Assembly (NCBI GenBank): GCA_000091205.1
Contig: AP006500.2
Source of the DNA: Cyanidioschyzon merolae
Lineage: Eukaryota
Length of the DNA stretch: 64,000 nt
Direction: 5' to 3' (one strand)
A program made the translations under genes and the position numbers. This document shows positions 23,861-53,700 of the stretch, in pieces. The notes beneath the pieces are model-generated. The model searched no databases. It was not told the DNA's origin and worked only from the letters and a program-made list of their open reading frames with translations. The number at the start of each line of letters is the position of its first letter. Positions within the stretch are counted from its first letter, which is position 1.

Positions 23861-24077
23861 GCGGTTCCCGGTTCCAGCAAGAGGTTAGTGTGCGCGCCTC
23901 CCTGACGCCCACACAGAAGTGTACACTTTTGCTGCCGTACACGAGCACTGCTGCTGCTCAAGCGCCAACTCTAGCGCTTCCTTCAATAGCAGTGCAGCGT
24001 CTGGTTTCCTGTGTATACGAAAAGACGCTCCTCGCGTCTCTTGACTGTGTCAGGGGCACTTGCGTGTGCGCGCACGC

Positions 24078-24375
24078 ATGCACAGCATCATCAGCGCAGC
24101 GCAGCAGGCAATCGATTTCCTTCCCCATAAGGGGTGAAGCTGATAATGAAGCTGATGATGATCGCGATGACGCTGAGGCATCGCGCCGGGCTGGAAACCG
24201 TGGGCGGATGGATGTCACGCATGCACAGCATCATTAGCGCAGCGCAGCAGGCAATTGATTTCCTTCTCCATAAGGGGTGAAGCTGATGATGAAGCTGATG
24301 ATGATCGCGATGACGCGGAGGCATCGCGCCGGGCTGGAAACCGTGGGCGGATGGATGGACGGATGGATGGATGGG
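24078..24375. repeat. 143-bp tandem duplication (2 copies) ending in a short (GGATGGAT)n run
   Basis: The two copies begin atgcacagcatcat[c/t]agcgcagcgcagcaggcaat at 24078 and 24221 with about 4 mismatches, followed by gggcggatggatggacggatggatggatgggcgg. ORFs through this region on both strands are repeat artefacts. Confidence 0.85.
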
Positions 24376-32223: not shown

Positions 32224-32711
32224 TCGGTTTCACGGCAACGCCAGTGCTGAATCCTTTTGCGACACTGCACTGACGACGGAGCGGTACGCGACATCGTCCC
32301 TGGATGACGTGTTGACAGCCATACGCTGAACGATCCGTGAGCTTCTCACGTTCCATCACCGGATTCATTCGAAACACGAATCCCGCTCGCTTCCTGAGCA
32401 CCCGCAAAGCCGCATTCGTTCCCAGAATGATTCCTGTCACGGGGGATACGCCCAGATGCTGCCGTCGATTCTCCTTTCGCGGAAACGGATGCCAGACGCT
32501 GACTCCAGTTCTCGCAGCGATGGCGTAGCGTGCGGGACGTGTCACCGACTCGTACGAGGGCAGCGTCGACAGATCCACGATATTCGACTTGTTCCGCAGC
32601 CCGAAAACTCATTCCGGTGCTTGTTTCATCATGCGGAACATCGCACTCCACAGATCCCCCATCGAATGGAGCAGCGTGCGCTTTCTTAGATATAGCGGAT
32701 AGCGCTCTCGC
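32224..32711. repeat. 488-bp dispersed direct repeat, copy 2 (about 99% identical to 26834..27321)
   Basis: It has the same boundaries as copy 1. It sits in the divergent promoter region between PSF1 (minus strand, start at 31777/31987) and the La gene (plus strand, start at 32846/33020). Confidence 0.9.
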
Positions 32712-35373: not shown

Positions 35374-37368
35374 ATGCGAACGACTGAGCTTCCCGAGTCG
35401 GCGGAAAATGAGCCGTTGGAGTGGCTCGAAACCCTCATGTGCCGCACCCTGGGAGAAGCGTTTGCGCTCGCTCACGGGGAAAGTGACCAGGGCCGAGCGC
35501 ACGCTCTGAGCACCGTTCACCAAACGAGTGTGTGGGAGAGTCTTGTACCCATCGCTCTGAAACGCATCACTGACGGTGCTCAGCGCGTTGCCGCCAACGC
35601 CGAAGCCAACACTGGACTCGCCACTAGCAGCGGCAGCGGCAGCAGCAGGACGCTGGCAGCACTCGAGGCACTCTCCACGCTCAAACGACGGCAGCGCCAG
35701 CAGCATCAAGCACAGCACGCGCTGGAAAACGCGGTACAACGGCTATATCTGACGGACTCGTTTGCTAGTCTGGAGACACGGCTAGAGCAGCAAGTACGTG
35801 CGCTCTGCAGACGCCTCCGAGGACTGGACCTCTATACCGATGAGAACGGCGACGGAGTCGTGCTCACCCTAAGCAGTACCACCATGCTCATCGATATCGA
35901 CGCGAGGACCGCTCACACACGTGTACGATACGTCGACGAGCACGGCACCGAAGTAGACGACCCGTATGCGGAGCGAGACATTCGCGAATGTCTGCTTCGT
36001 GGCGACATGGACGGCCTTGCGAATCGGTTGCAGGTTCTCCTGGACTTGGAAGAACTCGCTTCCGAACCGAGTCTCCGGGCGACAATGCACCCACGCACTT
36101 GTCTGATGACATGGAATGATGCACTGGTTGCTAAAACGGCGGATGCTGCAACGCTCTCGCTGAAGGCTTGCGCGCAGTGCAACGTACCGTTGGCCTCTGT
36201 GCGACGCACAGACGGTTTATCGCTAATCTTTGACGTGAAACCGTTGGCGCTTTTCGTTCCGGAATGGCAGAATGCGACGCTGGAGCAGGTGTCATCCACG
36301 TCCGTGGTTCGCAAAGCGCACCTGCGCTTCGAGCCTGTCGTCGTTTCCGTCGATGGTACCGTCACAACGTGTGTACGACCGGTGCTCCTGCTGGAAACGC
36401 CACTGCTGATCACCACATCGATCTGGAGAAGGTGCCATTGCCCTGCGGACGACGGTACACAGAGGGCAAGTGTTGCACCAGCGCCGTTGCAGACGTCGGG
36501 TTGCGGGGTACGGCGCGTATCGCTCTGGCAACTCCTGCTACAACGAAACGAACACCACCGACTTGCTCGGCAGCATGCATCCGACGAGCAGAATGGCCCA
36601 CGAGCAGCAAGGCCTGAAGCCGTCGCTTTTGAGGCTGTGCCTCCTAGTCCAGCGCGATTACCTGCTGCGTCTGGAGCGACACCCACATCGCCACATGGTG
36701 TGCAGTTCGCCTTCGATGAGAGCGAACCCGCGCTTTGGATCCATCGCATACCGCTTGCGGAGGTTGATGACGTCCTGCGGATAGCGCCGCTTCTACGCCA
36801 GCAATGGGTTCTTCTGGATTTAATGGAGAGCCTTCTGCCGTCTTGTGTAGCGTCGATATCGGACAGGCTCAGGGAGGGAGCGCCCTGTCCAGCTTGGCCT
36901 ATGGGATTGCCGGCGAGTGCAGCTACTGCAGCTGCTGCCCCTGCAGTGCGCTCAATGGTAGACGAACGCTGGGCCGATTCCGAGGCATCCTCCGTTCAGA
37001 CAAGGACGCACGATATCCCTTGGAATGGTCGGTGGCGTGCGCGGCAAGAGCACCGGGATGACCGTGCGGTTCTCATCCTGGATGCGGAGCGATGCCCGAG
37101 TGCAGCCTCTTCGGTGTCGTTGTTCCAAGCGGCATGCGAGGCTACCAGTCCAGGCGCTGAACATGCGGATGTTGGCGTGACGTCGCCCTCACCAGCACCG
37201 AGGCGGCTTGAGATTGTTGTTTGCGCTGACGGAGGTCTGCGCGTATTCCAGAACGGTGAAGATGATCCACGCTTAAGCAAACTGGTACAGACTTCGCGCA
37301 ATATTCCGTTATCGATAGCCGTTGCCACCACAGGCGCTGCAATTCGCGCGAATCGGATAGTTTCCTGA
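35374..37368 (+). CDS. Hypothetical protein (664 aa), no recognisable domain
   Basis: This long ORF has protein-like composition over most of its length and runs co-directionally in the gap between the La gene and the satellite region. I recognise no motif. Confidence 0.4.
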   Translation: MRTTELPESAENEPLEWLETLMCRTLGEAFALAHGESDQGRAHALSTVHQTSVWESLVPIALKRITDGAQRVAANAEANTGLATSSGSGSSRTLAALEALSTLKRRQRQQHQAQHALENAVQRLYLTDSFASLETRLEQQVRALCRRLRGLDLYTDENGDGVVLTLSSTTMLIDIDARTAHTRVRYVDEHGTEVDDPYAERDIRECLLRGDMDGLANRLQVLLDLEELASEPSLRATMHPRTCLMTWNDALVAKTADAATLSLKACAQCNVPLASVRRTDGLSLIFDVKPLALFVPEWQNATLEQVSSTSVVRKAHLRFEPVVVSVDGTVTTCVRPVLLLETPLLITTSIWRRCHCPADDGTQRASVAPAPLQTSGCGVRRVSLWQLLLQRNEHHRLARQHASDEQNGPRAARPEAVAFEAVPPSPARLPAASGATPTSPHGVQFAFDESEPALWIHRIPLAEVDDVLRIAPLLRQQWVLLDLMESLLPSCVASISDRLREGAPCPAWPMGLPASAATAAAAPAVRSMVDERWADSEASSVQTRTHDIPWNGRWRARQEHRDDRAVLILDAERCPSAASSVSLFQAACEATSPGAEHADVGVTSPSPAPRRLEIVVCADGGLRVFQNGEDDPRLSKLVQTSRNIPLSIAVATTGAAIRANRIVS

Positions 37369-37774: not shown

Positions 37775-37777
<3 letters not shown>

Positions 37778-37837
<60 letters not shown>

Positions 37838-37853
37838 ACTTCGCTTCCCAGCC
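37778..37853. repeat. (GTC)25 trinucleotide microsatellite
   Basis: There are 25 uninterrupted cgt/gtc units immediately 3' of the 664-aa ORF. The poly-Arg ORF at 37668..38054 is a repeat artefact. Confidence 0.95.
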
Positions 37854-37999
37854 CTAGTCCATGATACTCAGAGCAGGTCATTCTGGAGTACCTGTACCAG
37901 CGCGCGCTTCTGGCTCAAAATAAGACGATTTCAGTGCTGCTGTCGTTCGCGGAGCGGGACCCCAGCCCCATTGACGTATGTTCGCGGGGAAGTTCATCT

Positions 38000-38826
38000 G
38001 GATGCTTGCGAGCTTTGCTCAACGTGCACATGTCGCATTTCCTCAATGTCTTGATGCGGTTCCGCGTGGGGCAACCCGCCTTGCCATGTGATGCTTGAGC
38101 GCTTCCAGAAACGTGGCACTCAACGTGCACATGTCGCATTTCCTCCACGTCTTGGTGCGGTTCCGCATGGGGCAACCCGCCTTGCCATGTGATGCTTGAG
38201 CGCTTCCAGAAACGTAGCACTCAACGTGCACATGTCGCGTTTCCTCCACGTCTTGGTGCGGTTCCGCGTGGGGCAACACGCCTTGCCATGTGATGCTTGA
38301 GCGCTTCCAGAAACGTGGCACTCAACGTGCACATGTCGCATTTCCTCCACGTCTTGGTGCGGTTCCGCATGGGGCAACCCGCCTTGCCATGTGATGCTTG
38401 AGCGCTTCCAGAAACGTAGCACTCAACGTGCACTTGTCGCATTTCCTCCACGTCTTGGTGCGGTTCCGCATGGGGCAACCCGCCTTGCCATGTGATGCTT
38501 GAGCGCTTCCAGAAACGTAGCACTCAACGTGCACATGTCGCGTTTCCTCCACGTCTTGGTGCGGTTCCGCGTGGGGCAACCCGCCTTGCCATGTGATGCT
38601 TGAGCGCTTCCAGAAACGTAGCACTCAACGTGCACATGTCGCGTTTCCTCAATGTCTTGGTGCGGTTCCGCGTGGGGCAACACGCCTTGCCATGTGATGC
38701 TTGAGCGCTTCCAGAAACGTGGCACTCAACGTGCACATGTCGCATTTCCTCAATGTCTTGGTGCGGTTCCGCATGGGGCAACCCGCCTTGCCATGTGATG
38801 CTTGAGCGCTTCCAGAAACGTGGCAA
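38000..38826. repeat. Minisatellite with a 101-bp unit and about 8 copies (unit gcttccagaaacgt[a/g]gcactcaacgtgcacatgtcgc[a/g]tttcctc[c/a]a[c/t]gtcttggtgcggttccgc[a/g]tggggcaacccgccttgccatgtgatgcttgagc)
   Basis: The anchor cttccagaaacgt recurs at 38103, 38204, 38305, 38406, 38507, 38608, 38709 and 38810. The 101-bp unit is not a multiple of 3, and the staggered 100-aa minus-strand ORFs, each spanning three units, are artefacts. Confidence 0.95.
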
Positions 38827-39389
38827 CTTGCGAGCGATGAAAGCGACCTCGGGCCGGAAACGTTGCACCCCGTCTCCTCGGCGCGTGAACGCTTCTCGGT
38901 ATCGCGTCCTGAGTGCTGTTGCCTGTGACTTTTGTCCTTGCAGGATCAGCGATCAACGATTTCGCTGTCTGGTACGCGTGCAACCCATGATGCATAAGGG
39001 CGCTGGCTGCGTCCGCCAGGGACTGTACAACGCCAAACCAACCGCTTAATGCATCGTAGTTCCGTTACCGCAGGAACATCAGGACCCGTTCGAGCGAGCT
39101 AGGCTCTGTGGTACGGCAGCGGTACGAAAAGCACCAGCGTATAGCGTTGTGTGTCGGAGCAGAGCCTGATTTTCTAGCGCGCTTACCCGTACACACTGCC
39201 GAGCGACCAAGCGAAAGAGCCGCTTGATGCTTTGGACTGCAGGTACGCGTATTTTATGGTGAGTCATACCGTCGAGCGGACCAGAGACCTCGTCTGCTCG
39301 GATTTGCAGTGCGTTGTCCAGTTTGTTACGCTGCCACACACCAGAACCGGCACGTCTACCAGGAGGATGCTCCTGCCGGCTCTACAACC

Positions 39390-41708
39390 TCAGATACGCT
39401 CACTGGTCGACTGGACGGCCGCTTCGCAGACACTCGTCATCTCTTCCTCTGCTTGATAGAAGCTGTGGCGATCATGTGCACGTTCCTGATCCGGGATACC
39501 CAGAGAAACGGGTCGACGGAAGCGCAGGCGAACGAGCCACTGCGCTGTCGAGGACGTCGTCGCACTCACCGGACGCTCGAGTTGCACGACAACTTTGCCC
39601 CGCTGGCCAAACGTCCGGACGATGCGCCCCGAGACGCATGCTCGAACTGCTTGCCGACGATATGTATCCGCTGGGCATCCAGGCGGCTGCGCTGTGCTGT
39701 CGGTAAGCAACTCCAGCCGCACTCGTAGGCCCAGAATGCGCTCTGGGTGCTGCAAGTCGCGATCGAAGAGGTCTCGTACCAGGCAGCAGGCTCCGTCCTG
39801 GAGAAAGCGCTCTACGCGACCTATCCGTTCTTTGCGTCGGTATACACGGATCTGTCGAGCGACGGATGCGAGCCGCTCGCTTCCAGCGTCCAAGTGCGTC
39901 GTTGTCGGCATTTGCGTCGATAAAACCGCCTCTATAGCCAGAACAAAGCGTAGTCGCAAGTCGGGAGATTCGCCGTCTGGGCCGGCGCGGCGCTCCAGTC
40001 TCGCTTTTCTAGCCGCCGTTGCAGCCTCCCAGTGAGCATCTGATAAAAGCGCGACTTGAAAAGGCGTCAATGGTACTGGTCGCCTGGCGTCCGCCGCACC
40101 CCTCCCTAATTCAAATGGCAAGAAAATGCACCTCTCGAGACGCAGCACCACGAAACGCGTACGTTCTGCGGAGCACGTCGCTGTGCTAGCGTCTGCCTCC
40201 GTGGCACTCGCCAGGCATTCGTATTCACCGGCGGCATCTGCAGCTGCGAGCCAGTGCGTCACCCGGCCGGGAACAGTGGTCAACGCTAGGGTCAACTGCC
40301 ACTGGCGTGAGAGCGACGGTACCTGCCCTGGTGCAGGGTGATGCTCGGCACATGTCGCGATGGAGAACGCGTCTCCTCGCGCTGCCCCTGGATGAGTCAT
40401 GTCGAGTACCCGCTGCACTCGCATCAACAGCTTCTCGACCGGGTAAAACTCGATCAGGTTTGCCGGCGCATACACAAGACCTCGCTCCCAGGCGTCTCGC
40501 GGTGCACGCTGCCTGTGACTGGCAGTTTTGTTGCCACTGGCTTGTTTGCTCTTTTGAGCAAGGCTGCCAGATTTGGTACCAGGTGTGAGACCTAGAGCAG
40601 CCCGGTCGCCGGCAACAATTTCTGAGACCGATGATCGATAGACCTGAATAGAGCGGACGCTACGAGCATCCGCAATAAGGCGTTTCTTGGTGCCCTCGCT
40701 CCTGCTCTTGGTGCTGGCGACGCCCGCGCCCACAAACGCAGCGTGAATGACCTCCCCGATGCGTAGTCGTCCTGTCAGGAGAATACCCGTGAGCACAGTG
40801 CCCTGTCCGGTAACCTCAAAAGCGTGATCCACTGCGAATAGCGCATAGGGTTTCCGCTGGAGCCGGAGGCGCTCCTGCCATAGTCCACTGGCGAGCGCCT
40901 GCTCGGCTGCTGCCTGCACAGCCTGTGCTAGGGCCACAACGCCCCCGATATCGTCGTTATCAGCAGCGGGGAACAAAATGGAATGTTGGTGTTGTTGGTG
41001 TCTTTCGAATGCGGTTCTCCGAGCATCGGTTCCGATCCAGGTAGGAATCGTTGCCAGCGGTGTCGGGAGCCACCACCGGTTCGTGGACACATAGGCCTGC
41101 AACTGTTGGAGACGCTCCTCCAGGACTGCGGGCTGGTCTCGCACCCGATCACATTTGTGGAGCGCAACCACGACGTGTTTGGTGAAAATCGCAGCGAGGG
41201 CAAGACATTCGAGGGTTTGTGCTTGGATACCTGCACTGGCATCGACGACAAGCAGCAGGAGGTCCATGACGCTCGCCCCCAGTAGCACCGTTCGTAGCAG
41301 CGATGCATGTCCGGGGCAGTCAATCCAGGTCAGTTGGAGTCCCTCGTACGAAACATTCTCCAAAGACGCTGCTTCATCGTCCACAAGTTGCACCACAACT
41401 GGGCTCGCTGGCAGTCGGGTACACGAGAACCCCAGGTCGATCGTTCGACCGAGCTCCCGACTCGCGGGGTGCTTATCCAGTGCCGCTGTCGACAGTATCT
41501 CGCTTAGGAAGCGCACCAGCGTGGTTTTTCCGACGTCAACATGTCCCATGACGGCCACGTTGATGTTGAGGAAGCGACGCGTTTGCACTAGAGGTTGCCG
41601 AGCGAGCGACTCGTACCCTGGCCGTGTCGAGCGACCAACTCCAGGCATATTTTGGAGTACGACGGAGAACGAGCCTTCAACAGGTGACAGTGTCTCTCTG
41701 GTGTTCAA
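39390..41708 (-). CDS. EEFSEC: Selenocysteine-specific translation elongation factor (eEFSec/SelB-type GTPase)
   Basis: NINVAVMGHVDVGKTTL, STAALDKHPASRELGRTIDLGFSC and DCPGHASLLRTVLLGASVMDLLLLVVDASAGIQAQTLECL align closely with human eEFSec (NVNVGVLGHIDSGKTAL, STAAFDKQPQSRERGITLDLGFSC, DCPGHASLIRTIIGGAQIIDLMMLVIDVTKGMQTQSAECL). The C-terminal RIVRTFGQRGKVVVQL resembles GIIDSAFGQSGKFKIHI. Confidence 0.85.
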   Translation of the reverse strand: MNTRETLSPVEGSFSVVLQNMPGVGRSTRPGYESLARQPLVQTRRFLNINVAVMGHVDVGKTTLVRFLSEILSTAALDKHPASRELGRTIDLGFSCTRLPASPVVVQLVDDEAASLENVSYEGLQLTWIDCPGHASLLRTVLLGASVMDLLLLVVDASAGIQAQTLECLALAAIFTKHVVVALHKCDRVRDQPAVLEERLQQLQAYVSTNRWWLPTPLATIPTWIGTDARRTAFERHQQHQHSILFPAADNDDIGGVVALAQAVQAAAEQALASGLWQERLRLQRKPYALFAVDHAFEVTGQGTVLTGILLTGRLRIGEVIHAAFVGAGVASTKSRSEGTKKRLIADARSVRSIQVYRSSVSEIVAGDRAALGLTPGTKSGSLAQKSKQASGNKTASHRQRAPRDAWERGLVYAPANLIEFYPVEKLLMRVQRVLDMTHPGAARGDAFSIATCAEHHPAPGQVPSLSRQWQLTLALTTVPGRVTHWLAAADAAGEYECLASATEADASTATCSAERTRFVVLRLERCIFLPFELGRGAADARRPVPLTPFQVALLSDAHWEAATAARKARLERRAGPDGESPDLRLRFVLAIEAVLSTQMPTTTHLDAGSERLASVARQIRVYRRKERIGRVERFLQDGACCLVRDLFDRDLQHPERILGLRVRLELLTDSTAQPPGCPADTYRRQAVRACVSGRIVRTFGQRGKVVVQLERPVSATTSSTAQWLVRLRFRRPVSLGIPDQERAHDRHSFYQAEEEMTSVCEAAVQSTSERI

Positions 41709-42224
41709 AGAAAACCACAGAGGCTACAGACATGGATCGCTAGGTCAGCAGCAAGTCCAGTTTTCTGCTCTTGTACAGAAGCTCCCGCCCTGTTCCAGCG
41801 ATCGTCGTAAACAGAGACCCCACTTGTTTCGTTTATCTACAGTTGAAACGACTTTTTACGAAGCTCTCTTCCTCGAGCGTAGAGGCGCTCAGGCACCAGG
41901 CTCGCCCCAGTGTGCTCCGCGAGTTGTCCAACAACAAACCCCTGTGGACAACCGTCCGTCTACTTTTACCTGACTCGAGTCGAGTCCCGCAGACATACGC
42001 GAGAGTGTCTAGTGAACGCTTCACAGAACGCAAACGCCGTAAAAACGAGCCCGACGCATCGCCTGGATACGTCGTTCACAGGAGCGCTAAGCGCTCCAAG
42101 AAGCAGTCGGTTTCTTTTCAGCTGGTGCGGGATCGTTCACTCACGGACCAGGAGGCCCCAAAAGTGCGACTTGTGACGACGTCTGGCAGAACGTCTGCAA
42201 TACTGGTCACAACGCACGTCGGTT

Positions 42225-43763
42225 TTGGCTTGGGGTTTCCCAGTCACGCTGCCAGTCATGGTGCGCTGCGTCCACCTGCGACGACCTCGTTCGTGCATCG
42301 GGTTCGTGGACGCCCAGCTCATCAGGGACCACAGGAAACTGACACGATGTCGTTCGGATACAGGCGGGACAGGTCTGCGGTCGACCTGTTGTACGCGCCG
42401 CTGGTGCTGTGCTCAAGCGCAGCGTCTGCCGCTGCCGGAACGCAGCCCTGGTACGATCCTGCGGGTGGCGTGTGTCGGTGACGTTCACGACCAGTGGTCC
42501 GATGTTGACGCTCATCTTCTAGACACGGTGGTACAACCTGATGTGGTGCTTTTCACGGGTGATTACGGGAACGAGAACGTCGCCTTGGTGCGCAACATTG
42601 CAGCCTACGCGAGGAGGCGCTCTGGAGCAGCAACTTCAGCGCGCTGCGTTGCCAGTGTGTTCGGCAACCACGATGCCTGGTATACGGCTTCTGCACGGAG
42701 ACAAGCAGCAGCAGCAGCAGATGCTGCTGCTGCTGCGGGTTTGACACGTCGCTTCGGGGTTCCGTTGTTGGAAACGAAGGTCGAAGGTGCCGTTCGTGAG
42801 CAACTGGCTCTACTACGGGAGGTGGATGTGGGCTACGGCGTACGTACCGTTCACCTGGCCGAAAGAGATATAGGTGTACCGCTTTCCATTGTTGGGGGTC
42901 GCCCGTTCTCGTGGGGCGGCCCCAACTGGCGTTATCCTCGATTCTACGAGGAATATTTCCAAGTGTCCAGCATGGAGGAATCAGCTGCTCGCATTCGAGC
43001 CTGCCTCCGAGCAGAAGTGGAACGCGTTTGGTCCGCACGGCTTGAGCGCCTCGAGGAAGAGCGATCAGGGCAAGCTACCTCCAACCGACATCCGTCGAAG
43101 CAAGACGCGTTTGCTCCGGTGCCCTGTCTTGGAGTTCACCAGGTGGTCTTCCTCGCGCACAATGGGCCCTGTGGTCTCGGTGATGAGCCGCATGATATCT
43201 GTGGCCGTGACTTTGGCTTCGGCACTGCTGGAGGTACTGGATTCGATACCTCCAGCAAGCTGCAGGGTGACTTTGGGTGCCCGGACTTGGCCGACGTCAT
43301 TCAGTCGCTGAAAACGAAACCTATGATGGCGATCCTGGACGGAGAAGCCTCCGTTTTTATAGATGTGCCGCTTTGCGTCTTCGGGCACATGCACGAGCAG
43401 CTCCAGTGGGATCCACAAGGTTATGGAATCCGCCAAATGGTTGTCGAGAGCCATCATACTGTCTATGTGAATGCGGCTGTGGTGCCGCGCGTTCGTGCTG
43501 CTCGAGAAATTGCGGAGCTCAGCGGGCAAGCCAGCCTGGAGCCTGGCGAACAGCCTTTCCATAATTTCACGGTGATCGATATGGAACAACGTGCTTGTCG
43601 AGAGACAGAGGCAGCAACCTGCCCAGCGAAGGAACCCGATGATGCGCTCTATCGTGTGCGGAAGGTGTTTCAGGTGTGGCTGTCAGAGAAGGCGCCTCAA
43701 ACGGCGAGCTACGTAACCTGTCTGTATGAAAGCTCCACAGAATATGGGCAAGACCCGGAATGA
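42225..43763 (+). CDS. Calcineurin-like metallophosphoesterase domain protein
   Basis: The metallophosphoesterase motifs are RVACVGDVHDQW, VVLFTGDYGNEN and SVFGNHDAW, with a later GHMHE. The N-terminal ~70 aa of the ORF are Cys/Arg/Trp-rich and look non-coding. The true 5' end is uncertain and may lie in the upstream frame-shifted ORF (41771..42481) through a short intron. Confidence 0.65.
   Translation: MAWGFPVTLPVMVRCVHLRRPRSCIGFVDAQLIRDHRKLTRCRSDTGGTGLRSTCCTRRWCCAQAQRLPLPERSPGTILRVACVGDVHDQWSDVDAHLLDTVVQPDVVLFTGDYGNENVALVRNIAAYARRRSGAATSARCVASVFGNHDAWYTASARRQAAAAADAAAAAGLTRRFGVPLLETKVEGAVREQLALLREVDVGYGVRTVHLAERDIGVPLSIVGGRPFSWGGPNWRYPRFYEEYFQVSSMEESAARIRACLRAEVERVWSARLERLEEERSGQATSNRHPSKQDAFAPVPCLGVHQVVFLAHNGPCGLGDEPHDICGRDFGFGTAGGTGFDTSSKLQGDFGCPDLADVIQSLKTKPMMAILDGEASVFIDVPLCVFGHMHEQLQWDPQGYGIRQMVVESHHTVYVNAAVVPRVRAAREIAELSGQASLEPGEQPFHNFTVIDMEQRACRETEAATCPAKEPDDALYRVRKVFQVWLSEKAPQTASYVTCLYESSTEYGQDPE
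42703..42737. repeat. Palindromic trinucleotide tract (GCA)5 then (TGC)5
   Basis: The sequence gcagcagcagcagcagatgctgctgctgctgcg sits inside the metallophosphoesterase ORF, where it encodes a run of Ala, one Asp and a second run of Ala. Confidence 0.8.
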
Positions 43764-43913
43764 TTCGCGTATTTTTGGTTAAGGTAGATGCAGCGTGATG
43801 AGGAGGCCTCCAAACGGGCCGTGTATGGTGATTCTATTCGCCGAACTTGTATGACAAGCACGACGAATAAACATTGTAAGAATGCAGGCACGTGTAAAGG
43901 AAAACGATGCCTA

Positions 43914-44616
43914 GACGGATGGATGCATCCGGGAATCCATAAGCGGATAAGTGCATGAATCAATGAATACGAACGATGTATGCATGATTGAATGCATCCA
44001 TCCATACAACCGATGCATCCTGGTGACTCTGGGGTAACGTGGCAACTTGGATGATGATCGAATCCATGAATCAATGAACACGAACGATGTATGCATGATG
44101 GGATGCATCCATCCATACAACCGATGCATCCTGGTGACTCTGGGGTAACCTGGCAACTTGGATGATGATCGAATCCATGAATCAATGAACACGAACGATG
44201 TATGCATGATTGGTTGCATCCATCCATACAACCGATGCATCCTGGTGACTCTGGGGTAACGTGGCAACTTGGATGATGATCGAATCCATGAATCAATGAA
44301 CACGAACGATGTATGCATGATGGGATGCATCCATCCATACAACCGATGCATCCTGGTGACTCTGGGGTAACCTGGCAACTTGGATGATGATCGAATCCAT
44401 GAATCAATGAACACGAACGATGTATGCATGATTGGTTGCATCCATCCATACAACCGATGCATCCTGGTGACTCTGGGGTAACGTGGCAACTTGGATGATG
44501 ATCGAATCCATGAATCAATGAACACGAACGATGTATGCACGATTGGATGCATCCATCCATACAACCGATGCATCCTGGTGACTCTGGGGTAACGTGGCAA
44601 CTTGGATGATGATCGA
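43914..44616. repeat. Minisatellite with a 111-bp unit and about 6.3 copies (unit contains gatgcatcctggtgactctggggtaac[g/c]tggcaacttggatgatgatcgaatccatgaatcaatgaacacgaacgatgtatgcatgat[g/t]gg[a/t]tgcatccatccatacaacc)
   Basis: The anchor gatgcatcctggtgactctggggtaac recurs at 44011, 44122, 44233, 44344, 44455 and 44566. The unit is 37 codons, so both strands stay open across the array (the 283-aa and 229-aa ORFs) and are artefacts. Confidence 0.95.
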
Positions 44617-45259
44617 ATGCGAAGGAATGCAGAGGCTTTGCGATATCCTCATGCGAATGAATACATCAGTTTTCCCGTGACTTGCCAGAGATGCAGCTTA
44701 CAAGCTCCTCTTGATAGGTTCAAGAGCTGTCCATGAACATCAGTTTCGACTTCTCGGATGTCGAGTACGGTATCTGGTCGTTGCGTTGCTAGATTGCAAC
44801 TCTACCACTGGTGTTATCGAACTTGTCTAGACTTTTTGGAACTCAAGAAAACACGTTTTCCCTGGTCGCGTAATACCCTTTAACGATGCGTTCAGTTTGG
44901 AACGACACAGGTTGCTGGCATTTTCACCGGAGAACGTTCCTGAGAAACGCTTTCTGTCTTGTTCCGAAGCGTCGCAAAGCTTGACCCCTAAAGTTATGTC
45001 CCAGAAAACCGAACACCCGGCGGGGTCGGGTGCGAGTCTTCCTTTGAGGCGCTTCCGCTGCGCTGCGCGCCTTCTTCGATACCCGTTGTCGTTCGACGCT
45101 GCCGCACCAAAGCGAACAAAAAACTGCTTCTCGAACGAGAGCACGGTCGCGAAAACCAGGCAACAGAAACAACTATTCAGGCTTCAGTGCTGTCCGTTGG
45201 TAAGGTTACGACGTCGCTACAAACGGAACCGGAGCAGCGGTCTTTCTGCTTACCCGGTC

Positions 45260-45709
45260 TGTAAGCAGTCCGTCAGGGCAGATACCACGACGACGTCTAC
45301 AAACAGAGCAACACTAGCCGACGCTCATAGTTTGTGCGCTCCTGTGCAGCGTTCAAGCTCATCGTGCAACAAGTAAGCAGTCCGTCAGGGCAGATACCAC
45401 GACGACGTCTACAAACAGAGCAACAGTAGCCGACGCTCATAGTTTGTGCGCTCCTGTGCAGCGTTCAAGCTCATCGTGCAACAAGTAAGCAGTCCGTCAG
45501 GGCAGATACCACGACGACGTCTACAAACAGAGCAACAGTAGCCGACGCTCATAGTTTGTGCGCTCCTGTGCAGCGTTCAAGCTCATCGTGCAACAAGTAA
45601 GCAGTCCGTCAGGGCAGATACCACGACGACGTCTACAAACAGAGCAACAGTAGCCGACGCTCATAGTTTGTGCGCTCCTGTGCAGCGTTCAAGCTCATCG
45701 TGCAACAAG
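45260..45709. repeat. Minisatellite with a 112-bp unit and 4 copies (unit gtaagcagtccgtcagggcagataccacgacgacgtctacaaacagagcaacagtagccgacgctcatagtttgtgcgctcctgtgcagcgttcaagctcatcgtgcaacaa)
   Basis: Unit starts are at 45260, 45373, 45485 and 45597. It lies about 150 bp upstream of the POP1 start. Confidence 0.95.
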
Positions 45710-45861
45710 TCGGCTCTCGTTGCACCGCGTCTACTCGGCTGCTGCTGTGCTGAAAGCGTCCAGCGGTTCCAAGCACAGTCGAATAGCCGATCGAGCTAGG
45801 CTTGTTTTCGTTTGACGCTGTGAGCTTTGCGCCTGGTGCTTCCGCAACGATTCGGTGACTG

Positions 45862-48624
45862 ATGAAGACACCAGCTGCATACTGTGGCATTCCACGGGCG
45901 CTCGACGTCTCTGCATATGCTGCTGCACGTCTGAGAGAGTTGTGGCGACTGCAGCACGTCGTTCGAGCAGAGCAATGGCCCAACGTGAGCCGTAATAGAG
46001 CGCGGGCGGGTCGCTCAACGCGTCGTGTGTTCCAGTTATTGCCGTGGCATGCTCGTCGTCGAACGATGTCTTTCAGCACTCATCGTGTTCCGCGACCCTT
46101 CCGACACCTAGCTTGGGTTGAACTTTCGAAACAGCCGGCTGCTAGCCGCCGTTCAAGGCGTTCAAAGCTTACCAAGAAGGAACACTATCGTCGTCGGCGA
46201 TGGACTCGACGCGCCTACCGAAAGAGCGCCTTTCTTGTGAGAGATCGCTCCGAAGTAACGAGTCCATATGGCTGGCTCGAAACCCATGTCTGGCATGCGA
46301 AACGGATGCATATGTTTGAACCGTGCTGGGGCGGTCGACTCGCTTGGGCGCCCTGTGACCGAGGACTCAGAAGTTTCTGGCGCTGCGTATCCCGTGGTCA
46401 GTCTGATAAGCGCTGGAGACTCTGCAACGATATCTGCGCTATATATGATGCATCGTGGTATCGGGTGATTGAAATTCCTGAATACGTCGCACGCCATGTC
46501 CTACCGGGGCTCGTTGGAGAACGCACTTGGGCACGGCTTTGTTGTCAACCGGTCTGGCTTGGCTTGAAACGACTGGAAAATACCGCTATCTGGGATGAGT
46601 CAGGACGGATGATTGCTGCACAGGTGGAGTGGCTCTGGGAACCGCCCTCATTACCGATGTCGTCAGAGTCACGAAGAGAACCGGCTCCAGAGGGTACGCA
46701 ACCCATGGAAATCGAACAAACCGCAAGCAACGAGTCGGGGCACCTTGCTGGCCATTCGAAACGGCGTCTCTGGGCAATGGTACATCCACTCGTAAAAGAC
46801 GCTGTTCTGGAGTTGCTGCAAAGGGGCGTATCACGGATGTTGGCTTCCAGTCGACACGAGGCAGCTCCCGCGGAAGTGCATGCCACAACGCTTGATGAAC
46901 CTCTGGTATCGGGAACGCGCCCAAAGAGGCAGGAGGGAACCAGTGCTTTGCGATGCGCTGCACAAATGGAGCGCTCCCCAGACGCCCAAGAGCACACAAG
47001 TACCTGGTCAAATACCCCGGACACTGTGCAGGAGTTACCTGATGGTCTGGTTCGCTTCGAGTTGTACGGGAAGCGCTCCACAGAAGCGCTTCACCGAGCC
47101 CTGTTGAACGCCAACGCGCAAGGTCGAGACTGGATAGCATTCAGCCAGCTTGCGTCGCGGCTGGTATCTGCCGACAGCGTCAGCGGACAGAGCGTGTTTC
47201 ATCTGCATTGCGCAGATCCTCGACTGTTTTACCCTCCTAGAGTCCGAGTACCTGGACAAAGTCTATCGCAGACGCAAGCCGATTACAACTATGATGCCTT
47301 CGGGACGTATCTGCGCGCGGCGAGCGACTGGAAACGAAACTCCAGCCTGCCGGCCGCTATGCACGCGAGAACGCTCTTTGATACCACCTGGCGCAATGAG
47401 CTGGTGCTGAACGGCGTACGCGCTCTACCAGAAAGGTCATCTACTCGTATCCTCAGGTGGAAGCGGCGCCTAGCACGAGCAGAGGCTGCCTTGCAAGCAA
47501 CGCATAGTCGCCGGCCTGTTGCTGGAACGTGCGCTGCCGTCGTGCCGCGGACGTCATCCACAGCGCCTCCGCTCAAAAAGCGCCGCGTAGAGCCAGCACC
47601 TGCCGGGACGTTGTCGTCAAGCGCAGCTCTGGAAGCATCACGCGTGCTTGCAGGTGAAGCGCTCAGTGGATTGGCTGCTGCGCAGGCCGGTGAGCACTCG
47701 ACTTTGCTGCGCATACCCGTCGTGCTGCTGCATCGTCCAGCACAGGCGAGACGTCGATGGGACTCGGGCTGGGATGTGCTGCTCCCCAAGCGTTGGGCGA
47801 TGCCGTTCTGGAGCTCCCTGTGCTACGCGGGTGCTCGCGGTGTTGGTCTACGAGAGCGACGCTACGTCTATCACGAATCGGGCCGCTGTCATTTCCCAGA
47901 GGACTTTCCGGAGTGTAGGGAAGCGTACACACGCTGGGCTCAGCGCGACATTGAACGCGCTGCTGAGCAATGGAAACGAAGACCTCCGAGCAAAAGAGTG
48001 AATTTTACCCTGTACAGAGTACCGGAGCCTTTTGGTGTCGCCGATTGGCTCACGACGTCACTCTCTTCGGCGGGTAACGCGGCAGGAGCTGCCACCGCTG
48101 CTGTCGCTGGTGAAGAGTTGCATGTGCTTCGTTCGCGACAGGCCTTGATCGCACACGATGCGTACCAAACTGCATCGCATTCCGAGCAGCATCCCGTGTC
48201 CAGAGCTCGTTATCTTGTTCGAGTTCGTTTGCATCCGATCGGGCGAGCACCGCTGGCGACCAACGCTCTGATATGTTTGCCGCATACCGAGGACCTGGGC
48301 CTGGACGCCAGCACTAGTCACGCTCGAGTCGATGCGGTTCGGGAACAGCGCCCAGTGCCGGTCATCGAAGAACCTCGGGGTACGCACAACGACCACCAGT
48401 CAACAAGACAGGTCATCGGGCGACTGACCTGCAGTCAGTATTCGTGGAGCGACGGTTGTGTACGTGCATATGGTTTCGTCGATGTGGATACCCTGAACGT
48501 ATGTGCTGGTTTCGGATCTGCCAGCCAGAGACGCGCTGAACACCCGGTGGTGCTGGTACGCAACGTCACCAGCCGGGTGTATCGTTGGGCTCGACTCGAG
48601 CCGCTCTTCGACGAGGATACATAG
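45862..48624 (+). CDS. POP1: Ribonuclease P/MRP protein subunit POP1
   Basis: The N-terminal region VSAYAAARLRELWRLQ...LLPWHARRRTMSFSTHRVPRPFRHL matches the human POP1 N-terminus (VDKFAQARAAEISAML...[21 protein letters not shown]). It also carries the POP1 signature WLETHVWHAKRMHM (compare THIWHAKRFHM). Confidence 0.85.
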   Translation: MKTPAAYCGIPRALDVSAYAAARLRELWRLQHVVRAEQWPNVSRNRARAGRSTRRVFQLLPWHARRRTMSFSTHRVPRPFRHLAWVELSKQPAASRRSRRSKLTKKEHYRRRRWTRRAYRKSAFLVRDRSEVTSPYGWLETHVWHAKRMHMFEPCWGGRLAWAPCDRGLRSFWRCVSRGQSDKRWRLCNDICAIYDASWYRVIEIPEYVARHVLPGLVGERTWARLCCQPVWLGLKRLENTAIWDESGRMIAAQVEWLWEPPSLPMSSESRREPAPEGTQPMEIEQTASNESGHLAGHSKRRLWAMVHPLVKDAVLELLQRGVSRMLASSRHEAAPAEVHATTLDEPLVSGTRPKRQEGTSALRCAAQMERSPDAQEHTSTWSNTPDTVQELPDGLVRFELYGKRSTEALHRALLNANAQGRDWIAFSQLASRLVSADSVSGQSVFHLHCADPRLFYPPRVRVPGQSLSQTQADYNYDAFGTYLRAASDWKRNSSLPAAMHARTLFDTTWRNELVLNGVRALPERSSTRILRWKRRLARAEAALQATHSRRPVAGTCAAVVPRTSSTAPPLKKRRVEPAPAGTLSSSAALEASRVLAGEALSGLAAAQAGEHSTLLRIPVVLLHRPAQARRRWDSGWDVLLPKRWAMPFWSSLCYAGARGVGLRERRYVYHESGRCHFPEDFPECREAYTRWAQRDIERAAEQWKRRPPSKRVNFTLYRVPEPFGVADWLTTSLSSAGNAAGAATAAVAGEELHVLRSRQALIAHDAYQTASHSEQHPVSRARYLVRVRLHPIGRAPLATNALICLPHTEDLGLDASTSHARVDAVREQRPVPVIEEPRGTHNDHQSTRQVIGRLTCSQYSWSDGCVRAYGFVDVDTLNVCAGFGSASQRRAEHPVVLVRNVTSRVYRWARLEPLFDEDT

Positions 48625-50787: not shown

Positions 50788-53700
50788 CACATGACGCGTG
50801 CACTAGGGCAACTGGACGACACAGCTGCAGCGCCCGACACGCTGAGGCGTCGGCATGCGCGCTACATTCCACAGATAGACTGGAGCGAGTCGCCTTTGGA
50901 AGCGTCGACGGACTCGTCGGCCTCCGAGTCGGATCGTGCAGTGCGCTCTGCAGCATCGGTCGTGTCAGTCGGCAGCAGTTACGGTACCGGTAATGGTGCA
51001 GGGCGCACAGCGCTCACGGATAGCATGGTAAGCGAACTGGTTGAGCAGTGGTCTCTGCGCAGGCCGCTGCAGGCGAGCGTCCAAAACTCGTCACCAGCTC
51101 GTCGGCACTGGAGCGAGGCTCGTCAGGTGGAGGTGTCGTACTTTATAGCGCCCGAGTTGTTTTCAAACCGGGACTTGAACTTGCGACCCGGCACGAGACA
51201 AGTCGGGTGTTGTCTTTCGTGCCTGCAGCGGCATGCTGAGAGTCAGCAAATCAACATACCGTGAATGTATTCGATGATCTTCACGAGTCTTTGCAGTCGC
51301 AGGGCCCGCTCGTTTTCATGTCGTGCATGGTACTTGCTGGCGCTACCATGACTGTGCAGACATCGCACGGTACTTGCGAGAAGGCACAAAGGCAGTAACG
51401 ACTGCGTTGATAGATGGTGGATCGCTGCAAAGTCCAAACCTGGCATTGCTCGCCTATAACAAGCAGCAGGCGAAATCGTCTGTAAGAGGCATGGGCAGAC
51501 GGAGCATTGCGAGGGAATGCGGACATTGGCAAAGCAAAATGAAAGCCAAGTCTATCCATCCTGTGATGCGTTGGATACATACCCAGCTGTTGCTGGAAGC
51601 GACGCTCGGTCTTGTCTTCTCGTAGTGCAGCAACCGCAAACGTGTACGGCCTGTTTGATAGCTGTTAACAAGGGTATGGTGCGCACCCTCTGGACGTTGG
51701 AGCTGGAAACGGCAGCGTATTCTCAAGACGACGACGGAAATGCGAGCCTCGCTCTGAAGGAGCGACCTCAACGGCACTCTTTTAGACTCCGAGTCGATAC
51801 CTCTCTTAAGCGGTCGCATAGAGGCTGCGAGAGAAAATCGCTGGACGTGTTCCCGGAATCCAGTGTTGGAACGGAAACGAGAAGTAGACGCCATCCTGCA
51901 GGTGCGTATCCCTGTGGGCATCGATGACCGTACCGATATGCCTTGGTGGGAGTGCGCGTTCACCGCGCCGCAGCGCACCGTTGGTGCAGTTCCAGTCGAC
52001 CAGAGCGCATGCGTCGCAGCGTGAGACCCCCGTGCACCGAGCTGAGCATCCGGAACCGCAACGTCCGTGATCCGGTATGCAGCATGCCCTGACAAGAACG
52101 CCTGATCCGATCTGCGCTAGTAACGGATGGATGTTTGGAGGACCCGTGCATCATCACGGGTAGCGTTCGACAGCATCGTGCATGCGTTTCGGTTCGCACT
52201 GAAACTGCAATGTAGCTGGGGCAACTGCTCGACGATAGCGACACACACGGGTCGGTAAACGTGCCGCGTGTTTCCCGAGTTTTGTTTATTTTGTATCTGA
52301 AACAGAGCATGGGGCGCTGCACGCTTCATGTGTAAATTCGGATGTAGCTTCTATGGATCTATCTTGATGACGGTCTGGGGATTTCTCCCGTACCATAGCT
52401 TGACGTGGAGCGCAGCAGGCGCCGACTTCTAAGGGGGTTCTGGAGCTTGCGCGGCATCCATCCAGCTGAACACCTATTTACGGCCTAAGATGGAGGAATC
52501 TAGCGGTGCTAGTTTGGGATGCGCAAAGGCTATCGGTTCATGCACCCGAGGCCTCATCTGCGGCTGTGCCAGATTGAAATGCGAAACTGCATTGCTTGCT
52601 CGGTTCTTTTCCGTCGTTTTCTCGCCCAGCCTCACGCGGTGTACATCCGCTACATTCGAAGCGGAGCAACAGCGGCTTACGAATGCACGCGTCGGTTCAG
52701 GATCCGGAGTCGTCTTGTCCGAGTGGCTCCTTGGACGCGTCACCGTTCCATTTCCGCATGCCATCGGAATCGAGATAGCTCGCGATGCCCCTGGAAACCA
52801 ATTCCAAAATTAACCGATACCATTCCCGAGTTCATACAATGAAGCTTCGAGCCTGCTCCTCTCGTTACGTTTTGCATGCTCAAATCACACACGCTCCAAG
52901 TATTCGATTTCTCTGTTTCAAGGTCGCTCGTGGGCGGAGCATGTGGCGCTCCGGCACCGACCACGAAAGAGAATCGGTGTCATCTGCTTGGCAGCTTGTT
53001 GACCAGCGTATACCGCAAATTCAGTCAACCTGTAACGTCAAATGAGAGAGATCGAATGCGTTCGAAAGACAGGTTCTCGCTTTTCTGTGGTCGTCGTCTA
53101 CGCGGGATTCTACAGTACCATGACGCCTCTGACAGCGTATGCTCCAGGATGCTCCAGTCGGTTGCGCTTGCCCGCAAGAGGTTTTCTGAGTCAGACCTGA
53201 CTCATCTACGGGATCGCATCCAGTGGAGCGTGTGGCATCGCTTTGCATGAGGCGAGCGTTGTCGGACGGGAGTCTCTCGACCTGTTCCCTGGTCTGGCGT
53301 CGCCTTCGAGGCCTTGGTGCATCATGGAAAACATCGCGCTCCACGAACCCGCTATCGAGTGGACCAGCGTGCGCTTCCACGCCCAGCAGACAGCGTCCTC
53401 GACGCTGGGAGCGCCCTGAGGAAGCCCCTGATCGTAGAGTACGGCACGAGACGCAGAGACGCGAGGCGGGTATCGAGGATAGCCTGCAGTGCCTGCCACG
53501 AGCGTGTACCGTGCGATGACGCAAGCGTTGACGCGCCACAGGGCAGCCTTCTCATGAAGACGTGTGGTCTGCATATCGTTAGACCTGAACGCAGCCACGT
53601 GTCGTCTCTGCGAAGGGCGTCTCCAGGTTGTCTGGCGAAAGGATGAGAGTGGCAAGCGAAACGTCGATCACAACTTTTGCCAGTGCACGGCATGCGTTGA

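What the first reader, a model, noticed from the sequence alone, without database searches (positions are those of the whole stretch)
37778..45709. Three unrelated minisatellite arrays plus a (GTC)25 tract concentrated in the two spacers flanking the eEFSec / metallophosphoesterase gene pair
Within 8 kb there are four arrays. (GTC)25 is at 37778-37853. A 101-bp x8 array is at 38000-38826. A 111-bp x6.3 array is at 43914-44616. A 112-bp x4 array is at 45260-45709. The three minisatellite units share no sequence with each other, and each array is highly homogeneous (few mismatches per unit). No comparable arrays occur in the other ~56 kb of the window. The arrays occupy exactly the two intergenic regions that bracket the convergent eEFSec (minus) and metallophosphoesterase (plus) genes. 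The last array ends about 150 bp before the POP1 start. I do not know what causes this local tendency to generate or retain tandem arrays. Slippage or unequal-exchange hotspots, boundary or insulator-like elements, and a recombination hotspot all seem possible to me.
Basis: seen in the sequence. Interest (0 to 1): 0.55.

Follow-up and report, generated by a model that had tools for sequence, protein, structure and literature searches.

The report
Ordinary variable minisatellites in red-alga spacers
The four tandem arrays are real, but they are ordinary, locus-specific, copy-number-variable minisatellites in the non-coding spacers of the red alga Cyanidioschyzon merolae, and their closeness to one another is no more than chance would give.

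Summary
The window is Cyanidioschyzon merolae 10D chromosome 18: its POP1 is 100% identical to XP_005538434.1. All four arrays exist, with small corrections. They are (CGT)19.7 at 37776-37834 (not x25), 101 bp x8.0, 111 bp x6.0 and 112 bp x4.0. The units are unrelated to one another and occur nowhere else in the window. eEFSec(-) and the metallophosphoesterase(+) are divergent, not convergent. Two further minisatellites of the same class lie elsewhere in the window, 87 bp x2.9 at 8537 and 143 bp x2.0 at 24073. With five arrays in 64 kb, three falling within 7.3 kb has P of about 0.2-0.4, so there is no significant clustering. Environmental Cyanidioschyzon contigs about 99% identical carry the same arrays at the same sites with fewer copies (101 bp: 8/3/2; 111 bp: 6/3/1; 112 bp: 4/2/1; CGT: 20/10/6/5). 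Over 41.8 kb aligned to one such strain, every indel of 6 bp or more is a tandem-repeat copy change. Cyanidiococcus- and Cyanidium-like relatives keep the gene order with much shorter spacers. Best explanation: neutral VNTRs made by slippage or unequal exchange in relaxed intergenic DNA. They account for most of the spacer enlargement at this locus. Low interest.

The parts
37776..37834 (.). (CGT)19.7 perfect microsatellite in the tail-to-tail spacer between the Med1-like gene and eEFSec
   Evidence: TRF. The tract is shorter in other strains: 9.7 units in L009, about 5.7 in L091-93 and about 4.7 in L089-90.
38000..38835 (.). 101-bp minisatellite, 8.0 copies (TRF core 38018-38825), with a degenerate partial unit on the left. 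A 9-bp direct repeat CTTGCGAGC lies at both borders.
   Evidence: It has 3 copies in L009 and 2 in L089-93 and L010. The period is not a multiple of 3.
43954..44618 (.). 111-bp minisatellite, 6.0 copies, starting 190 bp after the phosphoesterase stop codon. Units 2 and 4 are identical, as are units 3 and 5, so a 222-bp two-unit block was duplicated. It lies in the lowest-GC 1 kb of the window (46.5% for the 1-kb window at 43751).
   Evidence: It has 3 copies in L009, L089-93 and L096, and 1 in L094.
45261..45710 (.). 112-bp minisatellite, 4.0 copies (units 2-4 identical), ending 151 bp upstream of the POP1 ATG
   Evidence: It has 2 diverged copies in L009 and 1 copy in L089-96 and L098. Contigs L001, L003 and L097 break at it. 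The period is not a multiple of 3.
35374..37368 (+). Med1-like ORF (664 aa), left neighbour
   Evidence: It is syntenic in L004-L006 and L008.
39390..41648 (-). eEFSec (selenocysteine-specific elongation factor), 752 aa from the first ATG
   Evidence: Environmental strains also call a 752-aa product.
42258..43763 (+). Calcineurin-like metallophosphoesterase, head-to-head with eEFSec. The shared 5' spacer of about 610 bp (41649-42257) carries no array.
45862..48624 (+). POP1 (RNase P/MRP subunit), 100% identical to C. merolae 10D XP_005538434.1
8537..8784 (.). 87-bp x2.9 minisatellite about 113 bp upstream of the annotated sulfite oxidase start.
   Evidence: It has 1.9 copies in L101.
24073..24357 (.). 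143-bp x2.0 minisatellite about 210 bp upstream of the signal-peptidase S26 gene (minus strand).

Best explanation
These are four independent, locus-specific tandem repeats, one trinucleotide microsatellite and three minisatellites of about 100-110 bp. They lie in non-coding spacers of Cyanidioschyzon merolae 10D chromosome 18. Each probably began as a tandem duplication of a unique stretch of spacer DNA (inferred). Each has since gained and lost whole units by replication slippage, unequal sister-chromatid exchange or repair-associated misalignment (inferred from the anatomy). This keeps the units nearly identical within a strain while copy number and unit variants differ between strains (shown, with an assembly caveat). 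They persist because C. merolae spacers are long and weakly constrained. Their presence in two neighbouring spacers is a chance co-occurrence in a genome where such arrays are common. They have no required sequence-specific function. At this locus they are the main reason the spacers are larger than in related genera.
For: Identity of the window: POP1 is 100% identical to C. merolae 10D XP_005538434.1, on a 1,253,087-bp record.

The arrays are real and homogeneous.

Units are unrelated and locus-specific:
- No unit-unit similarity beyond shuffles, and no copies elsewhere in the window.
- The window's dispersed repeats do not touch the arrays.

The arrays are non-coding:
- Periods of 101 and 112 are not multiples of 3.
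- There are no Pfam hits for ORFs crossing the arrays, no tRNA or Rfam hit, and folding no better than shuffles (z 0.0-0.6).
- GenBank protein accessions BAM82386 to BAM82398 are consecutive and match the 13 ORFs counted from sulfite oxidase to POP1, so no CDS is annotated in these spacers (inference).

Turnover:
- The 111-bp array carries a duplicated two-unit block, and three of the four 112-bp units are identical.
- Environmental contigs 98.6-99.4% identical have the same arrays at identical borders but with 3/3/2 copies (L009) or 2/3/1 copies (L089-93) of the 101/111/112-bp units, and CGT tracts of 9.7, 5.7 and 4.7 units.
- Some substitutions are private to one strain yet present in all its units, such as G33/C35 in both L009 112-bp units against A/G in all four 10D units.
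- Over 41.8 kb aligned to the Ga0078972 strain, all 8 indels of 6 bp or more are tandem-repeat copy changes.

The cluster is not special:
- Scan-statistic P is 0.2-0.4.
- Two more arrays of the class lie in the window.
- Ensembl lists 3335 TRF features genome-wide (PMC11050394).

Comparative context:
- Gene order La / Med1-like / eEFSec(-) / phosphoesterase / POP1 is conserved in Cyanidiococcus-like (L004-6) and Cyanidium-like (L008) contigs.
- The Med1-like-eEFSec spacer is 2022 bp here, 696 bp in L006, and the genes overlap in L008. The phosphoesterase-POP1 spacer is 2099 bp, 1100 bp, and again overlapping.
- This matches published mean spacers of 1890, 930 and 320 bp (PMC9812998).
- The arrays (867 bp and 1115 bp) account for 65% and more than 100% of the excess over L006.
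Against: - Only 64 kb of the 10D genome was available, so the genome-wide density of arrays with periods of about 100 bp rests on this window plus a published total TRF count that is not broken down by period.
- The comparison strains are metagenome assemblies, and short-read assemblers can collapse arrays. L010 has N at exactly the variable positions. L002 and L101 show perfect 2.0 and 1.9 copies. Logan contigs are particularly unreliable here.
- 10D, the only Sanger-finished sequence, is the longest at all four minisatellites compared with another strain.
- The only minisatellite found in 44 kb of Cyanidiococcus-type sequence (107 bp, 1.6-3.6 copies) lies in the same phosphoesterase-POP1 spacer. 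This could hint at a site-specific propensity, although a chance coincidence has a probability of about 0.2.
- No expression or chromatin data were examined, so a regulatory side-effect, for example of the 112-bp array 151 bp from the POP1 ATG, is not excluded.
Confidence: 0.8

Rival explanations
1. There is a local instability hotspot. A fragile site, replication-fork barrier, double-strand-break or recombination hotspot around the eEFSec/phosphoesterase pair repeatedly generates and expands tandem duplications in the flanking spacers.
For: - Four tandem repeats lie within 8 kb.
- All four differ in copy number between strains.
- A Cyanidiococcus-like relative has its own unrelated 107-bp array, with 1.6, 2.6 and 3.6 copies in three assemblies, in the same phosphoesterase-POP1 spacer. 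No other array was found in 44 kb sampled from that genus.
Against: - The clustering has P of about 0.2-0.4 given the window's own array density.
- The 87-bp array 30 kb away shows the same copy-number variation.
- The eEFSec-phosphoesterase 5' spacer in the middle of the supposed hotspot has no array.
- The positional coincidence in the relative has a chance probability of about 0.2, since 4 of about 20 spacers carry arrays.
- No shared motif links the three units.
Confidence: 0.1
2. The arrays are functional cis-elements: multimerised transcription-factor sites, terminators, or insulator/boundary elements that separate the divergent eEFSec/phosphoesterase unit from its neighbours.
For: - The arrays bracket the gene pair exactly.
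- The 112-bp array ends 151 bp before the POP1 ATG.
- The 87-bp and 143-bp arrays also lie 110-210 bp upstream of start codons.
- The 111-bp unit carries a perfect 10-bp palindrome, GGATGCATCC, and a GGATGGATG motif that is over-represented in the window, with 13 matches against 0.5 expected.
Against: - Copy number ranges from 1 to 4-8 among strains about 99% identical.
- The arrays are absent from Cyanidiococcus- and Cyanidium-like orthologous spacers, although the genes and their order are conserved.
- In the Cyanidium-like contig the same genes abut or overlap with no spacer at all.
- The three units share nothing.
Confidence: 0.06
3. The arrays are remnants of mobile elements: internal tandem repeats of a MITE, Helitron or LTR element, or members of a dispersed satellite family.
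For: C. merolae carries about 8% unclassified repeats and 12.7% LTR-derived sequence, concentrated in spacers (PMC9812998).
Against: - There are no terminal inverted repeats around the arrays.
- No second copy of any unit or flank exists in the 64-kb window.
- The sites are occupied by a single, non-repeated copy of the unit in some strains, with identical flanks.
- The wider genome was not available for a direct check.
Confidence: 0.03
4. The arrays are a sequencing or assembly artefact.
For: None beyond the general difficulty of assembling repeats.
Against: - The same units are found at the same borders in at least three independent projects: the Sanger-finished 10D genome, JGI 3300005573, and the JGI 33000503xx series with Logan.
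- Short-read contigs break exactly at the perfect 112-bp array.
Confidence: 0.01

Closest known systems
Classical minisatellites / VNTR loci (as described in human and yeast genomes)
   Same: - Head-to-tail arrays of a unit tens to about 100 bp long at a single locus.
- High identity within an array, with interspersed variant units.
- Whole-unit gains and losses between individuals.
- Non-coding location, with no dispersed copies.
   Different: - The units share no G-rich or chi-like core, unlike human hypervariable minisatellites.
- The arrays are short, 4-8 copies.
- The organism is a haploid-phase unicellular red alga.
- Polymorphism is inferred from metagenome assemblies, not from sizing.
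Intergenic repeat expansion in Cyanidioschyzon relative to Cyanidiococcus and Cyanidium (Cho et al. 2023, PMC9812998)
   Same: - The same organism and the same trend: spacers of about 2 kb, 0.7-1.1 kb and about 0 across the three genera at this syntenic locus.
- Repeats account for the excess.
   Different: - That paper attributes the excess mainly to LTR and unclassified interspersed repeats and lists 'simple repeats' at only 0.83%.
- At this locus the excess is locus-specific tandem arrays, not interspersed elements.
Satellite DNA / centromeric tandem repeats
   Same: Tandem organisation with unit lengths of the order of 100 bp. The 111-bp array is the most A+T-rich kilobase of the window.
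   Different: - The arrays are under 1 kb and single-locus.
- Three unrelated units lie side by side.
- Copy number drops to 1 in some strains.
- From my recollection of Kanesaki et al. 2015 (not retrieved here), C. merolae centromeres are short A+T-rich regions without repeats. At 46% GC this array is only mildly A+T-rich.
Multimerised promoter or spacer sub-repeats (for example rDNA IGS enhancer repeats)
   Same: Tandem sub-repeats lie immediately upstream of a start codon, as with the 112-bp, 87-bp and 143-bp arrays.
   Different: There is no conservation of sequence or copy number between strains or genera, and no evidence of factor binding.

Membership tests
Minisatellite / VNTR | Head-to-tail tandem copies of a unit of about 10 to over 100 bp | tested here: met
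   TRF periods are 101, 111 and 112, with 4.0-8.0 copies, 96-99% matches and 0% indels.
Minisatellite / VNTR | Locus-specific: the unit is not dispersed through the genome | tested here: inconclusive
   Each unit is found only at its own array in the 64-kb window and only at the orthologous site in related contigs. The remaining 16.5 Mb of the genome could not be searched.
Minisatellite / VNTR | Copy number differs between individuals or strains at fixed flanks | tested here: met
   Copy numbers are 8/3/2, 6/3/1 and 4/2/1, with identical flanks. Caveat: the comparison sequences are metagenome assemblies that may collapse arrays. The CGT tract differences (59 bp or less) are not exposed to that risk.
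Minisatellite / VNTR | Homogenisation or turnover within arrays (shared private variants, block duplications) | tested here: met
   In the 111-bp array, units 2 and 4 are identical, as are units 3 and 5. G33/C35 is present in both L009 112-bp units but in none of the four 10D units. C7 is shared by L089 111-bp units 1 and 2.
Satellite / centromeric repeat | Long arrays (kb to Mb) of one unit family, at many loci or at the centromere, bound by CENH3 | tested here: not met
   The arrays are 450-808 bp and consist of three unrelated units, each reduced to a single copy in some strains. CENH3 binding cannot be tested with these tools.
Transposon-borne tandem repeats (MITE, Helitron, LTR) | Terminal inverted or long terminal repeats, target-site duplication, multiple dispersed copies | tested here: not met
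   There are no inverted repeats flanking the arrays. No other copies of units or flanks occur in the window. Genome-wide copy number was not testable.
Coding tandem repeat | Period a multiple of 3, inside a conserved ORF | tested here: not met
   Periods of 101 and 112 are not multiples of 3. The 111-bp array (37 codons) mechanically opens a minus-strand ORF (43709-44560), but that ORF has no Pfam hit. Its length would change with copy number from 1 to 6, and it is absent from the relatives.
Structured RNA gene array | Match to an RNA family, or folding more stable than shuffled sequence | tested here: not met
   No Rfam gathering-threshold hit and no tRNA. Unit folding z-scores are 0.0 to +0.6.

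The most novel reading that the evidence does not exclude
Tandem-array growth may be directional in the 10D lineage and a real, under-appreciated contributor to the doubling of intergenic length in Cyanidioschyzon. In the alignment to the Ga0078972 strain, 10D carries the longer allele at 7 of 8 tandem-repeat indels, including all four minisatellites compared. At this locus, locus-specific arrays rather than transposons account for 65% to more than 100% of the extra spacer length relative to a Cyanidiococcus-like genome. If real, and not an effect of short-read collapse, this points to a lineage-specific bias in slippage or repair that inflates spacers.
Probability: 0.2. Interest if true: 0.45.

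Novelty: new member of a known kind. Interest (0 to 1): 0.15.

Why it matters
The practical value is modest.
- These arrays, and the 87-bp one upstream of sulfite oxidase, are ready-made VNTR markers for telling Cyanidioschyzon strains apart in hot-spring metagenomes and culture collections. They also explain why short-read contigs of this alga break just upstream of POP1.
- They show, at one syntenic locus across three genera, that locus-specific tandem duplication can account for most of the spacer enlargement that separates C. merolae from its compact relatives.
- They do not reveal a new kind of element or mechanism.

Tried and rejected
- **Exact-sequence look-ups of window proteins.** POP1, the phosphoesterase, the Med1-like protein, and the 10D POP1 record P0012 found nothing on record. 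I reached other strains through 99%-identical cluster members instead.
- **Accession searches.** Searching the literature for the assembly accession of the relative (GCA_041825655 / JBBELT) found nothing. Sample accessions did place two relatives in acid or geothermal sites, which led to the Cyanidiales identification.
- **Kinetoplastid idea.** My first guess, a kinetoplastid-like polycistronic layout with strand-switch regions, was dropped once genes proved to lie on mixed strands throughout.
- **Homology between the 107-bp and 111-bp units.** I tested whether the relative's 107-bp unit and the 111-bp unit in the same spacer are related. The result was not significant (p about 0.075 against shuffles, uncorrected).
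- **Centromere idea.** This was prompted by the 111-bp array being the window's lowest-GC kilobase. I rejected it because 46% GC is only mildly low, the array shrinks to one copy in a strain, and the papers I could read gave no chr18 centromere position.
- **Structured DNA or RNA.** The units fold no better than shuffles.
- **Transposon origin.** There are no flanking inverted repeats and no dispersed copies in the window.
- **The metagenome scan.** Only L009 and L010 were relevant.
- **Logan contig L099.** It shows 0.85 copy of the 87-bp unit. I treat this as unreliable, since I recall Logan assemblies use a short k-mer.
- **Unused search.** I ran no further search on the 143-bp array, because the answer would not change the verdict.
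Full report
**1. What is in the sequence.** Tandem Repeats Finder over the whole window reports nine rows. Four match the finding:
- (CGT)19.7, perfect, at 37776-37834
- a 101-bp unit x8.0 at 38018-38825 (96% matches)
- a 111-bp unit x6.0 at 43954-44618 (97%)
- a 112-bp unit x4.0 at 45261-45710 (99%)

Reading the DNA confirms them.

The same TRF run also shows an 87-bp x2.9 array at 8537-8784 and a 143-bp x2.0 array at 24073-24357. 'No comparable arrays elsewhere' is therefore wrong, although those two are shorter. Both are non-coding. The 87-bp array lies about 113 bp upstream of the annotated 492-aa sulfite oxidase start. The 143-bp array lies about 210 bp upstream of the minus-strand S26 signal peptidase.

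**2. Genes and orientation.** Pfam confirms La, a Med1-like ORF (35374-37368, +), eEFSec (39390-41648, -), a calcineurin-like metallophosphoesterase (42258-43763, +) and POP1 (45862-48624, +).
- The CGT tract and the 101-bp array sit in the tail-to-tail spacer between the Med1-like gene and eEFSec.
- The 111-bp and 112-bp arrays sit in the tandem spacer between the phosphoesterase and POP1.
- The shared 5' spacer between eEFSec and the phosphoesterase has no array.
- There are no tRNAs and no Rfam families in the window.

**3. Organism.** The POP1 search and cluster listing show that the window's POP1 is 100% identical to XP_005538434.1 / BAM82398.1 of Cyanidioschyzon merolae 10D. That record is 1,253,087 bp long, the length of chromosome 18 in PMC11050394. 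Two relatives with the same gene order were recovered.
- **Cyanidiococcus-like:** contigs with 53% GC (L004-L006; POP1 51% identical). Their sulfite oxidase is the close counterpart of a named Cyanidiococcus yangmingshanensis protein: 66% and 67% identity to the window query.
- **Cyanidium-like:** a 67% GC, extremely compact contig from Rio Tinto (L008).

The spacer sizes at this locus are:

| Spacer | 10D | L006 (Cyanidiococcus-like) | L008 (Cyanidium-like) |
|---|---|---|---|
| Med1-like to eEFSec | 2022 bp | 696 bp | genes overlap |
| Phosphoesterase to POP1 | 2099 bp | 1100 bp | genes overlap |

These reproduce the published genus means of 1890, 930 and 320 bp (PMC9812998).

**4. Nature of the units.**
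- BLAST and rotation-aware local alignment against shuffles show no similarity among the 87, 101, 111, 112 and 143-bp units or the relative's 107-bp unit.
- Each unit occurs only in its own array within the window.
- The window's few dispersed repeats lie elsewhere.
- No inverted repeats flank the arrays.
- The units fold no better than shuffled sequence.
- Periods of 101 and 112 cannot be coding. The ORF that the 111-bp period opens mechanically has no family match.
- GenBank protein accessions run consecutively from sulfite oxidase (BAM82386) to POP1 (BAM82398). This matches the 13 ORFs I count, so no CDS is annotated in the array spacers (inference).

**5. Turnover within and between strains.**

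Within 10D, the 111-bp array reads W1,(W2 W3),(W4 W5),W6 with W2 = W4 and W3 = W5, which is a duplicated 222-bp block. Three of the four 112-bp units are identical.

One metagenome scan and several cluster-member look-ups gave environmental Cyanidioschyzon contigs 98.6-99.4% identical to the window. They are collinear with the window, have the same array borders and carry fewer copies:

| Array | 10D | L009 | Other contigs |
|---|---|---|---|
| CGT tract | 19.7 | 9.7 | about 5.7 (L091-93), about 4.7 (L089-90) |
| 101 bp | 8 | 3 | 2 (L089-93, L010) |
| 111 bp | 6 | 3 | 3 (L089-93, L096), 1 (L094) |
| 112 bp | 4 | 2 | 1 (L089-96, L098) |

Each lineage has private substitutions shared by all its units. 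For example, G33/C35 is in both L009 112-bp units, and G7/G43 is in the single L089 unit. This is what independent expansion or concerted evolution predicts.

A global alignment of 41.8 kb of 10D with the Ga0078972 strain has 13 indels. All 8 that are 6 bp or longer are tandem-repeat copy changes, including the 87-bp array 30 kb away.

Caveats on the strain comparison:
- These are metagenome assemblies.
- L010 carries N at exactly the variable positions, a sign of collapse.
- L002 and L101 have perfect 2.0 and 1.9 copies.
- L094 has a terminal duplication artefact.
- Contigs L001, L003 and L097 simply break at the 112-bp array.
- 10D, the only finished sequence, is longest at all four minisatellites compared with another strain.

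The CGT differences lie within read length and are not exposed to collapse. In L009 the units within an array differ from one another, which argues against a trivially collapsed loop.

**6. Is the cluster special?** With five minisatellites in 64 kb, the chance that three fall within 7.3 kb is 0.26. It is 0.21-0.41 when measured in non-coding coordinates, and 0.22 for four of eight tandem repeats of any period. Ensembl's TRF track holds 3335 features for the 16.5-Mb genome (PMC11050394 Table 3). That is about 13 expected per 64 kb, against 9 rows here.

The relatives also have minisatellites. The Cyanidium-like contig has 63-, 77- and 73-bp arrays. The Cyanidiococcus-like contigs have one 107-bp array, with 3.6, 2.6 and about 1.6 copies in three assemblies, just after the phosphoesterase stop. 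A further 21.6 kb of C. yangmingshanensis has none. That the relative's single array falls in a spacer that also carries arrays in 10D has a chance probability of about 0.2, and the two units are not demonstrably homologous.

**7. Explanation.** The best-supported reading is that these are ordinary, neutral, locus-specific VNTRs. They were created by tandem duplication of unique spacer DNA and are kept in flux by slippage or unequal exchange, in a genome whose spacers are long and weakly constrained. The steps stand as follows:
- **Shown:** the arrays, their independence from one another, their non-coding position, the fixed borders, the assembled copy-number differences, the shared private variants, and the lack of significant clustering.
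- **Inferred:** the molecular mechanism and neutrality.

At this locus the arrays (867 bp and 1115 bp) account for 65% and more than 100% of the extra spacer length relative to the Cyanidiococcus-like genome. Published work attributes the genome-wide excess mainly to LTR and unclassified repeats. The rival readings (a local hotspot, regulatory or insulator arrays, transposon remnants, an artefact) are weighed in their own section. None has positive support beyond position.

**8. Verdict.** The arrays are real and unrelated. The gene pair is divergent, comparable arrays occur elsewhere in the window, and the concentration is within chance. This is a new instance of a well-known kind of sequence in a long-published genome. 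Interest is low. The useful by-products are strain-typing markers and a possible, unproven directional growth of arrays in the 10D lineage.

Noticed in passing
window 26832-27321 and 32222-32711: A 490-bp direct duplicate, 99.2% identical and 5.4 kb apart. One copy lies upstream of the RING-finger gene and the other upstream of the La gene. L009 carries the second copy too. The first site lies outside the L009 locus, so it could not be checked there.
   Followed up: partly
window 13675-13867, 15289-15496 (inverted relative to the first), 58967-59174: A dispersed repeat family of about 200 bp, 67-76% identical, with three copies in intergenic DNA. A second pair lies at 27230-27445 and 53313-53528 (71% identical). 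These may be old interspersed elements of the 'unclassified' class reported for this genome.
   Followed up: no
window 24206-24373, 43917-43925, 43995-44558, 52125, 52455: The motif GGATGGATG occurs 13 times against 0.5 expected. It lies in each 143-bp unit and just beyond that array's right border, in the left flank of the 111-bp array, and in every 111-bp unit. A (GGAT)n-like seed may favour slippage at array borders.
   Followed up: partly
window 8537-8784: An 87-bp x2.9 array lies about 113 bp upstream of the annotated sulfite oxidase start. Metagenome gene callers read through it, giving 'proteins' of 595 and 624 aa that differ by exactly 29 residues, one repeat unit. The window's own read-through ORF (8411-10375) is 654 aa, about one further unit longer.
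   Followed up: yes
window 35639 (Med1-like CDS) and 42716 (phosphoesterase CDS): In-frame hexanucleotide-repeat length differences lie inside coding sequence between 10D and the Ga0078972 strain. (GCAGCG)3, 18 bp, is extra in the other strain. AGCAGA, 6 bp, is extra in 10D.
   Followed up: partly
L004 / L006 / L005, about 8836-9224: A Cyanidiococcus-like relative has an unrelated 107-bp minisatellite starting 43 bp after the phosphoesterase stop, with 3.6, 2.6 and about 1.6 copies in three assemblies. In L004 the eEFSec gene is not called as one ORF, which suggests a frameshift or an assembly error there.
   Followed up: partly
L008 5700-5703 and 9523-9539: In the 67% GC Cyanidium-like contig from Rio Tinto, the called Med1-like and eEFSec genes, and the called phosphoesterase and POP1 genes, overlap by a few bases. 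The two spacers that hold the arrays in C. merolae are entirely absent there.
   Followed up: no
L094 1-165: An exact 82-bp x2.0 duplication at the contig end overlaps sequence that maps to the eEFSec 5' region. It looks like an assembler end artefact and is a warning about the reliability of that sample's repeat lengths.
   Followed up: partly
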